64,000 nucleotides of DNA from an uncultured Candidatus Saccharibacteria bacterium (GTDB lineage: Bacteria; Patescibacteriota; Minisyncoccia; UBA6257; JAUSGH01), in assembly GCA_964372325.1 (NCBI GenBank), contig CAYJQG010000001.1:120-64119 (forward strand). Reading direction: 5' to 3'. A model generated the notes under the pieces. That model was not told where the DNA came from. It was given only the letters and a program-made list of their open reading frames with translations, and made no database searches. Every line of letters starts with the position of its first letter. The stretch's first letter is position 1. Positions 36,357 through 39,341 of this stretch are shown in pieces. Position numbers and translations under genes: made by a program.

Positions 36357-36554
36357 ACGATTCTAAACTTTGCTCGAACTTATTTTACCAAAAAATCTGA
36401 AGAAAACTAAACTGACGAAAATGTGCCGCTCCGCCACGTCCTCCGCTTTACCACCGCTTATTGTTCAGTAAATGTGTGTTATAATTAACTTACTAAATAC
36501 TTATAAATATGATGCCGGATCAAATTATAAGCACATAATGAACATTTTACCCAT

Positions 36555-37439
36555 ATGGCAAACAGAGAAAGAATAAAAATACGTAATGAGGTAGAGTCCG
36601 GAAATAGCGAGGTGGAACGGGTATATGAGCGTTACTCTGGCGTTTGTGATGTAATCAGCCCAGAGCAGGCCCGAGCTATGGCCGAAGAACTTCGAAAGAA
36701 TCGGAAGAATCCCGATCGAAAAGTCATGATCGGGTCGATGGCAGGTCATTTTACTTTGAGACCCGATAAGGATGATCCGGGTGAACAGCGGAGTGTTTTT
36801 CCGTCGAGAGAGGAAATTTCCAAGGGTTTTACTGACGATCCCGATGTACTGAACACTGTGCATTTTGCCGACTTGTATAGACCAAGAGAGGTTCAAACTC
36901 TTTTCGGTGATCTCGAATTGGTCGTTAAATACGGAGGGGAACATTTGCATGCGATTCAACTTGATGTCACTTGGCCGAACCCCGAAGATATTACTAAATT
37001 CAAAGATAAATACCCAGATTTGAGCATTATTTTACAACTTGGAAAATTTGTATTCCAGGAGATTGGTGTTGATCTACAAAAAATGGTTGAGCGACTTCGC
37101 GAGTACGGCGATTCAATTGACTTTGTTTTGCTTGATATGAGCATGGGGAAAGGTAGGGGTATGGAATCCGAGGGTCTCCTACCATTACTAAGACTGATAC
37201 GAAAAGAGCTTCCGTATCTTGGTCTCGCTGTCGCGGGAGGATTGGGACCAGATTCGATGGATCTACTCGAACCAATTGTCAAGGAGTTTCCGGGCATCTC
37301 CATTGACGCGCAAGGTCGCCTGAAGCCTGCCAACGCGGGAGTGGATTCGCTAGGACACATAGCTTCAACTGTGCCGGCAGACCCAAAACGAGCAAATGAT
37401 TATATTCAGAAAAGCTGCGCGATGCTGGATAGCCCATAA
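36555..37439 (+). CDS. ribulose-phosphate-binding TIM-barrel protein, phosphoribosylanthranilate isomerase (TrpF)-like, inside a low-GC islet
   Basis: 294 aa. C-terminal half resembles the TrpF pattern (IQLDVTW; DFVLLDMSMGKGRG; LAVAGGLGPDSM; GISIDAQGRLKP). No other trp genes nearby. Confidence 0.5.
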   Translation: MANRERIKIRNEVESGNSEVERVYERYSGVCDVISPEQARAMAEELRKNRKNPDRKVMIGSMAGHFTLRPDKDDPGEQRSVFPSREEISKGFTDDPDVLNTVHFADLYRPREVQTLFGDLELVVKYGGEHLHAIQLDVTWPNPEDITKFKDKYPDLSIILQLGKFVFQEIGVDLQKMVERLREYGDSIDFVLLDMSMGKGRGMESEGLLPLLRLIRKELPYLGLAVAGGLGPDSMDLLEPIVKEFPGISIDAQGRLKPANAGVDSLGHIASTVPADPKRANDYIQKSCAMLDSP

Positions 37440-37495
37440 GGAGAAACGGTAAATTATATCTCGGTAATTTATAAAGTAACTAACATAAATAGCAC

Positions 37496-37678
37496 ATGAA
37501 CGATGAACTAAAAAATAATCAGAGCGGTCCGACGGAACCAGTCAACAAAGTTCAAGTAAATTGTACAAAGTGTCAGAAGAATCCATGTATCTGCCCTAAT
37601 AAGAAAACTTTGGGCGAGAAAGCCACCAGTAAAAATAATCGTCCCAGAACCAAGCCGCCAAAAATAAGTTGGATATAA
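37496..37678 (+). CDS. hypothetical small Cys-rich protein (doubtful)
   Basis: 60-aa ORF with CTKCQKNPCICP motif inside the islet. Weak support. Confidence 0.2.
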   Translation: MNDELKNNQSGPTEPVNKVQVNCTKCQKNPCICPNKKTLGEKATSKNNRPRTKPPKISWI

Positions 37679-37679
37679 A

Positions 37680-39186
37680 TTATTCCGTTTGTGCCAATAA
37701 AGTAACCATCACGAGTACCACGAGCTCTATCGCAGCTTTGTGTTGATTTTCTTTGTTTCCCATTAAAACTTGGAGTTTACCCGAATTAAGGCTTCCGGTT
37801 TTATAATGGTACAGTTCGCCGCTTCTTGCTGCCAATTGAACGCGATTTAGAAAAGGGAAATAATCGCCTTCATGCCTGTCCCCGAATAATTTTTTTGACC
37901 ACACAGCACCAACGCCAACTTTTATATCCGTCTCTATTTTACCGTTTGGACCAGATGAACTAATATGACGATCTATTATATATTTTGTTAAAAGAGCTAT
38001 AGACCCTTGAAATCCTACGTCAAAAATAACTATTTTATTCTTATCTGTTCGAATGTGCTTTTTGATATAGTCTGCCAGATTAGCTATTACCGTCGCGAAC
38101 CCCGGATCCAAAGAAGCAAACATATCTAAGAGTCGCGCATACTCGTTATAAAACTCCTTAAAACTTGTAGGGTAGCGCTTATGTGCGTTATAAAGGACTT
38201 CGAGTGTTACAACATAGTATCCCCATTCTCTCGACTTATGGCTGAGTAATTTTCTTCCAATCAGTATCTGGTCAACAGCAGTATCTTCTGAGCTTAAGAT
38301 ATCTAATGTTTTATGTGCTTCATAAAACATTAGGCAGTCTCTCAAAAGATATAGGGTATGGCTATTGTCTTTTCGTCTTTTTGTAACTATATCCAATACA
38401 AGGGCGCTGATTTTTATAATATCTTCGAGATCTACAATCCTTCCGCCGTTCCAGCGTTCCAATTCTGCAATTGATACTGGATTTTTTAATAATGTTTTAA
38501 TACCTGCTACGGTAAAGTCAAAATATGCTTCTGGACTTGTCTCTTCATCACCAAATTGTAAAAAATCATCCGGTAATATGCCTTGATATTGTTTATCCTT
38601 CCACTGCCTGAGAATAGCATCGTACCAGGTCTCGTTATATTCTCCATTCAATTGATCAATAGTATCCTTATCTTCGATAAGTTTTTTGTTCGGCTTGAGA
38701 TCGAAAGCTGTCGTCTTATCGACTTCAAACCATTGGTCAAGATGACTGCGATAATATAACTTACCCTCGAGGATATTATAGAAGTTTTCTCCGACTTGCT
38801 GTTGTCCATTTTTTTTGAGAAACCCACTTTTCAAAACAAGTATTATACATGTTTTGCAGGACATGTTTATCTCTAAATTGTTTCTCAAATAAGTGTTCAA
38901 AGGCACTAGCAAAAGTTGGAAAACCAGCATCCACAACAATCAGCTTAATCCAGTCCAAGATATTGAAGATGTGTCGACAAACGTAGTAAAGGTACTCATC
39001 ATCTGCGTTTTTTAACCGCTCTTGTACATCTTGGATATCATTGATCAAGAATTCACTAAAAACCTGGAAATCTGTTGTAACAGACCAATCCATGTTTGAC
39101 TTACTTGTAGGAATTATTCTCTCAAAATCTTTAAAAAACTTGATGAGCCATGCATCATCTTGTGTTTTAGTAATTTGATCCGGCAT
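37680..39186 (-). CDS. hypothetical ~500-aa protein interrupted by a frameshift at an A8 homopolymer (ORF-track 38776-39186 and 37680-38939 are two frames of one gene)
   Basis: The two minus-strand ORFs overlap by 164 nt around an AAAAAAAA run at 38807-38814. Joining them gives one continuous protein. No recognisable family. Low-GC islet context. Confidence 0.5.
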
Positions 39187-39341
39187 ATTTATAAATTATT
39201 TATAAGTATTTAGTAAGTTAATTATAGCACACATTTACTAAGCAGTAAGCGGTGGTGAAGCGGAGGTTTGCAGGGCACTATCTAATGTGTTATTATTGAA
39301 ACGCTCATTGAAAACAAGCCGCGAAGCATGGGACCCGTTTC

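What the first reader, a model, noticed from the sequence alone, without database searches (positions are those of the whole stretch)
36440..39270. 2.8-kb low-GC islet with ~70-bp terminal inverted repeats ~130 bp downstream of tRNA-Pro, carrying a TrpF-like TIM-barrel gene and a frameshifted ~500-aa unknown gene
The two ends (36440-36510 and 39199-39270) are near-identical inverted copies. The interior has lower GC and different codon usage than its flanks. It sits about 130 bp downstream of tRNA-Pro, a classic island integration target. It encodes a stand-alone PRAI-like barrel with no trp context. It also encodes a large unknown protein split at an A8 homopolymer, which could be a sequencing error, phase variation or decay. 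This may be a novel transposon-like element whose mobilising enzyme is the unknown protein, or an inactivated cargo island.
Basis: seen in the sequence. Interest (0 to 1): 0.75.

Follow-up and report, generated by a model that had tools for sequence, protein, structure and literature searches.

The report
Three-gene cassette with duplicated promoter
The "transposon ends" are two copies of one gene's promoter region, flanking a small, previously undescribed three-gene enzyme cassette that turns up in many ultra-small (CPR/DPANN) microbes; one of its genes is broken here by a single extra base.

Summary
A 70-nt, 93% inverted repeat (about 100 nt with indels) brackets 36440-39266, 127 nt downstream of tRNA-Pro. 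Inside are a TrpF-fold barrel gene (A) and a ~500-aa gene (B) split at an A8 tract.

The transposon reading fails. Both arms are B's own promoter-like region and leader plus its first five codons, and both point inward. Sixteen related cassettes were compared. Fifteen have no flanking repeat, and one shares only a 25-nt promoter core. No transposase, target-site duplication, att repeat or integrase was found.

The order is the same in 23 of 23 loci, the neighbourhoods are unrelated, and a tRNA gene is often adjacent.

B's only clear structural relatives are PRPP-dependent ribofuranosyltransferases (Bcs3 CriT, 7SHG), so it is not a mobilising enzyme. A's closest fold is PRA isomerase.

My inference is that B transfers phosphoribosyl from PRPP and A then tailors the pentose phosphate, with C as docking partner or substrate.

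B carries a +1 insertion in an ancestral A7, also present in a second assembly.

The low GC applies to B and C only, and it is a trait of the B family.

The parts
36241..36312 (+). tRNA-Pro(GGG). It is followed by a perfect 22-bp hairpin (36309-36356). This is context, not part of the cassette.
   Evidence: ARAGORN; Rfam tRNA, 52.7 bits; hairpin I3.
36440..36541 (+). Left arm. It is a secondary, inverted copy of gene B's upstream region. It holds an extended -10 element (TG 36477-36478, TATAAT 36480-36485), the leader, and a remnant of B's start that now forms the uORF 36509-36538 (MMPDQIIST*). It is placed to drive A and C.
   Evidence: The arm contains ATGCCGGATCAAATT, which is B's first five codons. 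Homology to other cassettes on this side starts only at A's start codon. Promoter function is inferred from the consensus and was not tested; the -35 is weak and the simple scan did not list it.
36555..37439 (+). Gene A, 294 aa. A (beta-alpha)8 barrel of the ribulose-phosphate-binding type, closest in fold to PRA isomerase (TrpF). The invariant residues C31, H103, D106, Q135, D137, D194, G228-G229-x-G231, D251, K257 and H268 all sit at the C-terminal ends of strands or in the loops that follow them.
37496..37678 (+). Gene C, 60 aa. A small peptide with N-terminus MNDE.NNNQ, an optional C-x2-C-x-KNPC-x-C knuckle, and a conserved C-terminus [ILV]-x-[WYF]-[IL]-COOH (PPKISWI here).
   Evidence: C lies between A and B on A's strand; 17 versions from 18 loci were found and aligned (alignment A4). 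The same tail is fused directly to the C-terminus of A in P0103 and P0105.
37680..39186 (-). Gene B, 501 aa once repaired. An N-terminal helical and beta region is followed by a CriT/gPRT-like alpha/beta catalytic domain carrying the invariant residues L281-R282-D283, R311 and D389-x-G391-x-x-G394-S395. Here it is split into a 136-aa ORF and a 419-aa ORF.
38809..38816 (-). A8 tract (T8 on the + strand). It is a +1 insertion relative to the in-frame state and causes the frameshift in B.
   Evidence: Homologues are intact at this site, for example L009 CAAAAAAATGG (A7, reading Q-K-N-G).
39155..39266 (-). Right arm. This is B's native upstream region: an extended -10 element (TATAAT on the minus strand at 39226-39221, with TG at 39229-39228), the leader, and B's first codons.
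   Evidence: DNA homology with cassettes in other genomes runs through B's start and on to 39207-39242. The shared motif TGYTATAATTAAYTTACTAAAYAC lies upstream of B in L001 and L006.

Best explanation
The segment is a compact three-gene accessory cassette, A-C→ ←B, not a transposon.

Shown:
- The same three genes in the same convergent order occur in many CPR (Patescibacteria) bacteria and in at least one archaeon. Neighbourhoods are unrelated, and a tRNA gene is often adjacent.
- The 'terminal inverted repeats' are two inward-facing copies of B's own upstream region (a perfect TATAAT with a TG extension, the leader, and B's first five codons). The right arm is native, because it is conserved upstream of B in other genomes.
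- B is interrupted by a one-base insertion in an ancestral A7 tract.

Inferred about the repeat: the left arm is a lineage-specific inverted duplication placed in front of A. It would put A-C and B under the same control region.

Inferred about function:
- B is a PRPP-dependent phosphoribosyltransferase of the CriT/gPRT fold. It transfers ribose-5-phosphate to an unknown nucleophile.
- A is a TrpF-like phosphate-binding barrel. It isomerises or otherwise tailors the phosphoribosyl product, by the logic of TrpD followed by TrpF, or of a PRPP transferase followed by pentose tailoring.
- C, with its conserved hydrophobic C-terminal tail, docks onto a partner enzyme or is itself the acceptor.

In this genome the pathway is off, or is switched by slippage at the A tract. 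Confidence is about 0.8 for the architecture and the promoter-duplication reading, and about 0.35-0.45 for the chemistry.
For: Cassette conservation: A is followed by a convergent B in 23 of 23 loci with enough flank (gene tables). C was found in 18 loci. No flanking gene is shared across loci.

Nature of the repeat: the arms include ATGCCGGATCAAATT, B's first five codons, and a TGnTATAAT element pointing inward. Homology between the window and L001 runs from A's start codon (36554) to 56 nt upstream of B's start (39242). B's upstream region is also conserved in L006, L009, L097 and L102, whereas A's upstream region is not. A long repeat is seen only in the window: alignment score 123 against a shuffled maximum of 22. 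L006 scores 34 and the other 15 loci are at control level.

Frameshift.
Against: - No sequence-level link joins B to CriT/gPRT, even with a broadened profile.
- The residue equivalences rest on order and spacing, not on a residue-level superposition.
- A fails the Pfam PRAI threshold. Its active site has more polar invariant residues than TrpF, so it could equally be an epimerase or some other sugar-phosphate enzyme.
- The cassette has no HAD phosphatase, which accompanies every characterised gPRT/CriT.
- The acceptor is unknown.
- The simple promoter scan did not flag the -10 elements, because the -35 is weak. No expression data exist.
- How the cassette moves between genomes is not explained.
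Confidence: 0.7

Rival explanations
1. This is a novel transposon-like element. The 70-nt terminal inverted repeats are recombination ends, and the 500-aa protein is the mobilising enzyme.
For: A real 70-nt, 93% inverted repeat brackets the genes. The cassette occurs in unrelated contexts. One gene is decayed.
Against: Fifteen of 16 related cassettes have no flanking repeat. The arms carry B's promoter-like region and first five codons, and homology with other cassettes ends inside the arms. B has a CriT-like phosphoribosyltransferase fold and no transposase, integrase or HUH match. There are only two copies of the repeat in 64 kb. No target-site duplication is visible in the flanks.
Confidence: 0.04
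2. The cassette is the cargo remnant of an integrative element that targets tRNA genes. It arrived by site-specific integration next to tRNA-Pro and the integrase has since been lost. The inverted repeat is incidental.
For: A tRNA lies within 800 bp of a cassette end in 7 of 15 loci. Eight of 13 flanking tRNAs fall in 13% of the flank sequence, binomial P about 6e-5. The tRNA identities differ: Pro, Gln, Gly, Ser and Leu. A and B keep a fairly constant GC (about 0.37-0.49 for A and 0.30-0.42 for B) against hosts of 0.30-0.49.
Against: No integrase or any conserved flanking gene was found in any locus (gene tables). There is no direct repeat of the tRNA-Pro 3' end. No hits were found in viral contigs, phage or plasmid collections. 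Some tRNA contexts may be shared ancestry (tRNA-Gln in L001, L096 and L097), so the statistic overstates independence. tRNA-flanking regions may simply be permissive insertion sites in these compact genomes.
Confidence: 0.2
3. The cassette is a RiPP-like or carrier-peptide system. Peptide C is the substrate: B phosphoribosylates a residue in or near its conserved C-terminal tail, and A rearranges the adduct.
For: C is a conserved small peptide encoded between the two enzymes. Both of its termini are conserved and its middle is variable. The enzyme pair matches transfer-then-isomerise logic. A remote B-like domain is fused to an ADP-ribosylglycohydrolase, which hints at ribosyl marks on macromolecules.
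Against: The candidate acceptor positions in the tail vary. Position -2 is S, T, K or R, and the Lys is Q or displaced in some versions. The hydrophobic positions -3, -1 and 0 are the ones kept, which is the pattern of a docking motif. The tail is fused to enzyme A in two homologues. C is absent from a few loci, such as L011 and L111. There is no protease, exporter or known RiPP recognition domain.
Confidence: 0.15
4. The cassette is an anti-phage defence or toxin-antitoxin module, for example one that depletes PRPP or ribosylates a target.
For: Its distribution is patchy and accessory. Some neighbours are defence-like or mobile-like: a TaqI R-M pair in L001, HicA in L011, and nucleotidyltransferase and HTH genes in L004.
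Against: None of the three proteins matches PADLOC. The neighbourhoods are mostly ordinary housekeeping genes. Nothing in the cassette resembles a sensor or an antitoxin.
Confidence: 0.07

Closest known systems
CriT domain of Haemophilus influenzae Bcs3 (PDB 8A0C/8A0M), and the gPRT domain of dual-domain ribofuranosyltransferases (PDB 7SHG, Thermobacillus composti)
   Different: No detectable sequence similarity. B is a stand-alone 500-aa protein with a different N-terminal half. It has no fused or adjacent HAD phosphatase (PRP/CrpP) and no glycan-assembly gene context. It is restricted to CPR/DPANN-type genomes. Only 51 clusters at 50% identity were found among 1.84 billion proteins.
Phosphoribosylanthranilate isomerase (TrpF, Pfam PRAI PF00697)
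   Different: A scores below Pfam's threshold. It is 90-100 residues longer, and carries extra invariant His, Asp, Gln and Lys residues. No trp genes are nearby. It is paired with a CriT-like enzyme rather than TrpD.
PRPP-transferase-then-tailoring pathways (TrpD/TrpF; HisG.../HisA; mycobacterial DPPRS followed by phosphatase and epimerase)
   Same: The logic is the same: a PRPP-dependent transferase makes an X-ribose-5-phosphate, which a second enzyme then isomerises, epimerises or dephosphorylates, using the 5-phosphate as a handle (PMC11127046 for the DPPRS pathway; the Trp and His pathways are textbook knowledge).
   Different: Both enzymes here belong to undescribed families. The acceptor is unknown. 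A conserved 50-77-aa peptide accompanies the pair.
Insertion sequences and MITE-like elements with terminal inverted repeats
   Same: Inverted repeats of about 70 nt bracket a 2.8-kb segment.
   Different: No transposase, no target-site duplication and no other copies were found. The repeats are absent from 15 of 16 related cassettes. The arms are promoter, leader and start-codon sequence facing inward.

Membership tests
Transposon / IS element with terminal inverted repeats | Inverted repeats at both termini, conserved among copies of the element | tested here: not met
   The repeat is present in this copy only. Alignment score is 123 against a control maximum of 22. L006 shares 25 nt (score 34), and 15 other loci are at control level.
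Transposon / IS element with terminal inverted repeats | Encodes a transposase or recombinase (DDE, HUH, Ser or Tyr) | tested here: not met
   A is a TIM barrel and B has a CriT-like fold. Neither has a Pfam, NCBIfam or PHROG recombinase hit.
Transposon / IS element with terminal inverted repeats | Target-site duplication and multiple copies | tested here: not met
   The flanks ...GCCACGT| and |TTTGCAGG share no direct repeat. The repeat core occurs only twice in the window.
tRNA-targeted genomic island | Located next to a tRNA gene | tested here: met
   The left arm is 127 nt from tRNA-Pro. A tRNA lies within 800 bp of the cassette in 7 of 15 loci, P about 6e-5.
tRNA-targeted genomic island | Integrase gene, and a direct repeat of the tRNA 3' end (att) | tested here: not met
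   No conserved flanking gene or integrase. No second copy of the tRNA-Pro 3' end and no suitable direct repeat.
tRNA-targeted genomic island | Empty site in a close relative | not testable with these tools
   The flanking PPDK-like gene has no relative above 41% identity. No sister genome is available.
PRA isomerase (TrpF, PF00697) | Match to the family profile above the curated threshold | tested here: not met
   The window protein has no PRAI hit. Four of 51 family members have sub-threshold hits, best E 0.018.
PRA isomerase (TrpF, PF00697) | (beta-alpha)8 barrel with a phosphate-binding site after strands 7 and 8 | tested here: met
PRA isomerase (TrpF, PF00697) | Catalytic Cys (end of strand 1) and Asp (end of strand 6) | tested here: inconclusive
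   The invariant residues C31 and D194 sit at those strand ends in the model. No residue-level superposition was available, and hhalign aligned only strand 7.
CriT/gPRT PRPP-dependent ribofuranosyltransferases | The CriT/gPRT catalytic fold | tested here: met
CriT/gPRT PRPP-dependent ribofuranosyltransferases | Acidic pair holding the ribose (D680/E818) and Arg plus loop residues binding the phosphates (R679, R708, 821-825) | tested here: inconclusive
   B has the invariant residues R282-D283, R311 and D389-x-G-x-x-G-S in the same order, with the same 28-residue Asp-to-Arg spacing. The mapping is by order, not by superposition.
CriT/gPRT PRPP-dependent ribofuranosyltransferases | Accompanied by a HAD-type phosphoribose phosphatase, in a glycan-assembly gene context | tested here: not met
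   No HAD domain in A, B or C, and none conserved nearby. The neighbourhoods are unrelated.
CriT/gPRT PRPP-dependent ribofuranosyltransferases | Uses PRPP as donor | not testable with these tools
   This needs an enzyme assay.
RiPP-type peptide modification clusters | Small precursor peptide gene adjacent to the modifying enzymes | tested here: met
   C lies between A and B in 18 loci.
RiPP-type peptide modification clusters | Class-defining enzyme or recognition domain, protease or exporter | tested here: not met
   A, B and C have no Pfam or NCBIfam hits. No conserved neighbouring genes.

The most novel reading that the evidence does not exclude
A, C and B form a previously undescribed pathway, specific to episymbiotic CPR/DPANN cells. 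A CriT-fold enzyme phosphoribosylates a peptide or protein (C itself, or a target recruited through C's tail) using PRPP. A TrpF-like barrel then rearranges the adduct. This would be a new kind of post-translational or RiPP-like chemistry, and its expression could be phase-variable through the A-tract in B.
Probability: 0.12. Interest if true: 0.75.

Novelty: new variant of a known kind. Interest (0 to 1): 0.42.

Why it matters
As a mobile element the finding does not hold up, so it adds no new transposon class.

What remains is a tightly conserved, undescribed three-gene cassette. It is confined to ultra-small symbiotic bacteria and archaea, which lack most biosynthetic pathways. It pairs a second, very divergent lineage of the recently discovered PRPP-dependent CriT/gPRT fold with a TrpF-like barrel and a mini-peptide.

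If the inferred chemistry is right, PRPP-dependent ribosyl transfer would extend beyond capsule and O-antigen synthesis. It would also give a testable function to two 'hypothetical' families in CPR/DPANN genomes.

The locus is also a clear example of a regulatory inverted duplication that mimics transposon ends. That is useful as a caution for sequence-only scans.

Tried and rejected
- Transposase or recombinase search on A, B and C with Pfam, NCBIfam, PHROGs and PADLOC: nothing.
- Flanking repeats in relatives: none in L001, L003, L004 or L006 with the repeat finder, and none in 15 of 16 other loci with local alignment against shuffles.
- Other copies of the repeat core in the window: none.
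- att-like repeat of the tRNA-Pro 3' end, or other direct repeats at the borders: none.
- Empty-site search. The one genome-contig scan, using the flanking PPDK-like protein, returned only 34-40% relatives. The large protein search showed a next-best hit of 41%. Exact look-ups of the window's own contig gave only the Logan fragment or nothing, and cluster look-up gave no taxon name. No sister genome is available, so the test could not be done.
- Mobile carriers: B was absent from viral contigs, phages and plasmids, and A from plasmids.
- Conserved fourth gene or integrase in the flanks: none.
- Sequence link from B to 8A0C/7SHG using profiles A2 and the broadened A3: none.
- hhalign of A against E. 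coli TrpF: only 12 columns aligned.
- Rfam at E <= 1 over 35800-39400: only the two tRNAs and sub-threshold noise.
- The afdb50 fold library was unavailable.
- Literature searches for a PRPP-linked RiPP, or for this gene pair in CPR/DPANN: nothing relevant.
- The simple sigma-70 scan did not list the repeat's TATAAT boxes, because their -35 is weak.
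Full report
**Observation.** The repeat is real. The repeat finder reports arms 36440-36509 and 39197-39266, 70 nt and 93% complementary. A gapped alignment extends them to 36440-36541 and 39155-39266. A 41-nt core occurs exactly twice in the 64-kb window, with none expected from shuffles. tRNA-Pro(GGG) lies at 36241-36312, 127 nt before the left arm. There are two convergent genes: A at 36555-37439 (+) and B at 39186-37680 (-). 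B is split at a T8 run on the + strand at 38809-38816. Removing one base gives a 501-aa protein.

**What the arms are.** Read inward, each arm contains a perfect TATAAT preceded by TG-n, then a leader of about 25 nt, then ATGCCGGATCAAATT. The TATAAT boxes are at 36480-36485 on the + strand and 39226-39221 on the - strand. On the right, ATGCCGGATCAAATT is B's true start (MPDQI...). On the left it is a stranded remnant forming a 9-codon uORF (36509-36538), 16 nt before A's start. So the repeat is two inward-facing copies of one gene's 5' region.

DNA comparison with the same cassette in other genomes gives the direction of the duplication. Homology with L001 runs from A's start codon (36554) to 56 nt upstream of B's start (39242). 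B's upstream region is also conserved in L006, L009, L097 and L102. Nothing upstream of A is conserved (sequences). The right arm is therefore native, and the left arm is a secondary inverted copy placed in front of A. Promoter activity is inferred from the consensus only. The simple scan did not list these sites because the -35 is weak.

**Test of the transposon idea.** I compared the cassette's outer flanks in 16 other loci. Only the window has a long repeat, scoring 123 against a shuffled maximum of 22. L006 shares a 25-nt promoter core, scoring 34. The other 15 are at control level. No transposase, integrase, target-site duplication, att-like repeat or further copy was found. The genes were not found in viral contig, phage or plasmid collections.

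**A conserved three-gene cassette.**
- A has 212 homologues and B has 97, often on the same contigs. The sources are Parcubacteria, Yanofskybacteria, Uhrbacteria, Saccharibacteria and Paceibacterota, plus one archaeon whose contig carries histone, FtsZ and RuBisCO genes, and one MAG labelled Planctomycetota.
- In 23 of 23 loci with enough flank, A(+) is followed by a convergent B(-).
I found C in 18 loci (17 different versions aligned). It has a conserved N-terminus (MNDE.NNNQ), a variable middle that often carries C-x2-C-x-KNPC-x-C, and a conserved C-terminus [ILV]-x-[WYF]-[IL]-COOH, typically PPKISWI.
- In two A homologues the same tail is fused directly to A's C-terminus.
- Neighbouring genes are unrelated from locus to locus.
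- A tRNA gene lies within 800 bp of a cassette end in 7 of 15 loci. The tRNAs are Pro, Gln, Gly, Ser and Leu, and the binomial P is about 6e-5. Some of these contexts may be shared ancestry.

**Composition.** A's GC (46.2%) equals the window's ORF mean (46.1 +/- 2.9%, 46 ORFs). B (36.9%) is the lowest of the 46, and C is 38.8%. B is 5-10 points below A in all 15 loci, across hosts of 30-49% GC. The dip is therefore a property of the gene family and not, on its own, a sign of recent arrival.

These are the PRPP-dependent CriT/gPRT enzymes. According to PMC10299916, CriT has a five-stranded alpha/beta core with an inserted helical bundle. R679-D680 follow the first strand, R708 and R712 bind the 5-phosphate, and E818 with loop 821-825 complete the site. 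B's model has the same order of elements: strand 276-281, helix, strand 304-308, three inserted helices (322-375), then strand 384-389. Its family-wide invariant residues are L281-R282-D283, R311 (28 residues after the Asp, as in CriT) and D389-x-G391-x-x-G394-S395.

An exhaustive profile search found only 51 clusters among 1.84 billion representatives. The distant members keep LRD...R...[DE]xGxxG[ST]. One distant member fuses this domain to an ADP-ribosylglycohydrolase. The residue mapping is by order and spacing, not by superposition, and no sequence-level bridge to the solved enzymes was found.

**Most likely mechanism (inferred).**
- A, whose fold family grips a terminal phosphate, then isomerises or otherwise tailors that phosphoribosyl product. 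The precedents are TrpD followed by TrpF, and PRPP transfer followed by pentose tailoring in glycan pathways (PMC11127046).
- For C, the conserved positions in the tail are the hydrophobic ones (-3, -1, 0), while -2 varies (S, T, K, R). The tail can also be fused to A. This pattern favours a docking motif that tethers the partners, perhaps to hand over a labile intermediate. C being the acceptor is the less likely option.
- The cassette lacks the HAD phosphatase that accompanies all characterised gPRT/CriT enzymes, so it is not a member of that system as defined.

**The frameshift.** Homologues are intact at the site. L009 has CAAAAAAATGG (A7). L011 has an A8 that is in frame because of its different context. 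Others have A4-A6. The window's A8 is therefore a +1 slip. An independent Logan assembly (ERR4904390) is identical across 36351-39049, including the A8. The 376 codons downstream contain no further stop. The lesion is therefore recent, or phase-variable, or, least likely, an error shared by both assemblies. Read-level data are needed to decide.

**Verdict.** The segment is an accessory, horizontally distributed three-gene enzyme cassette. Its 'ends' are a lineage-specific inverted duplication of one promoter region, and one gene is freshly broken. The element-level story is ordinary. The enzyme trio is undescribed and moderately interesting.

Noticed in passing
window 35968-36240: The 273-nt spacer between the two tRNA genes is closed by a perfect 25-nt inverted repeat (35968-35992 / 36212-36236). 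It folds into one long branched hairpin, MFE -124 kcal/mol, z = -11.6 against shuffles. It has no Rfam match. It is either an unknown structured RNA or a palindromic DNA element.
   Followed up: partly
window 35896-35967: ARAGORN calls a tRNA-Ser(UGA) that is only 72 nt long, with a 5-nt variable loop. It therefore lacks the long variable arm expected of bacterial tRNA-Ser. Its identity and charging are unclear.
   Followed up: no
window 39342-42243: Immediately right of the cassette is a 748-aa protein with PPDK_N and the swivelling His domain but no PEP-utilizers_C. Its C-terminal part matches a phage family of unknown function (phrog_20946). Its end overlaps a 222-aa DSP/PTP-like phosphatase, 'PTP-SAK'. 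Many proteins of about 750 aa with the same two-domain architecture occur in Parcubacteria, Patescibacteria and Melainabacteria-type MAGs. This looks like a kinase/phosphatase pair of unknown substrate.
   Followed up: partly
window 45041-45166 and 45836-45961: Direct repeats of about 125 nt (85-98% identical, spacing 795 nt) flank the ORF at 45184-45756 (-).
   Followed up: no
proteins P0265, P0250, P0259, P0260 (not in the window): Distant relatives of B's catalytic domain occur fused to an ADP-ribosylglycohydrolase (P0265, 607 aa). They also occur inside giant proteins of 3,024-5,003 aa, one of which carries GNAT and methyltransferase domains.
   Followed up: partly
window 37676-37682: C's stop codon (37676-37678) and B's stop codon (37680-37682) are separated by a single base, and no terminator-like hairpin lies between the convergent units. 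Transcripts from the two identical promoters would run into each other as antisense.
   Followed up: no
window 36413-36436 (- strand): The only terminator-like hairpin in the region sits on the minus strand just outside the left arm. It would stop any read-through coming out of the cassette towards tRNA-Pro.
   Followed up: no
L011 9605-10936 and L010/L011 upstream genes: In the archaeal locus a form-III-type RuBisCO large-subunit gene lies directly beyond B. Rubrerythrin genes lie upstream of A in both L010 and L011. These may be coincidental, but RuBisCO in these organisms belongs to a pentose-bisphosphate salvage route.
   Followed up: no
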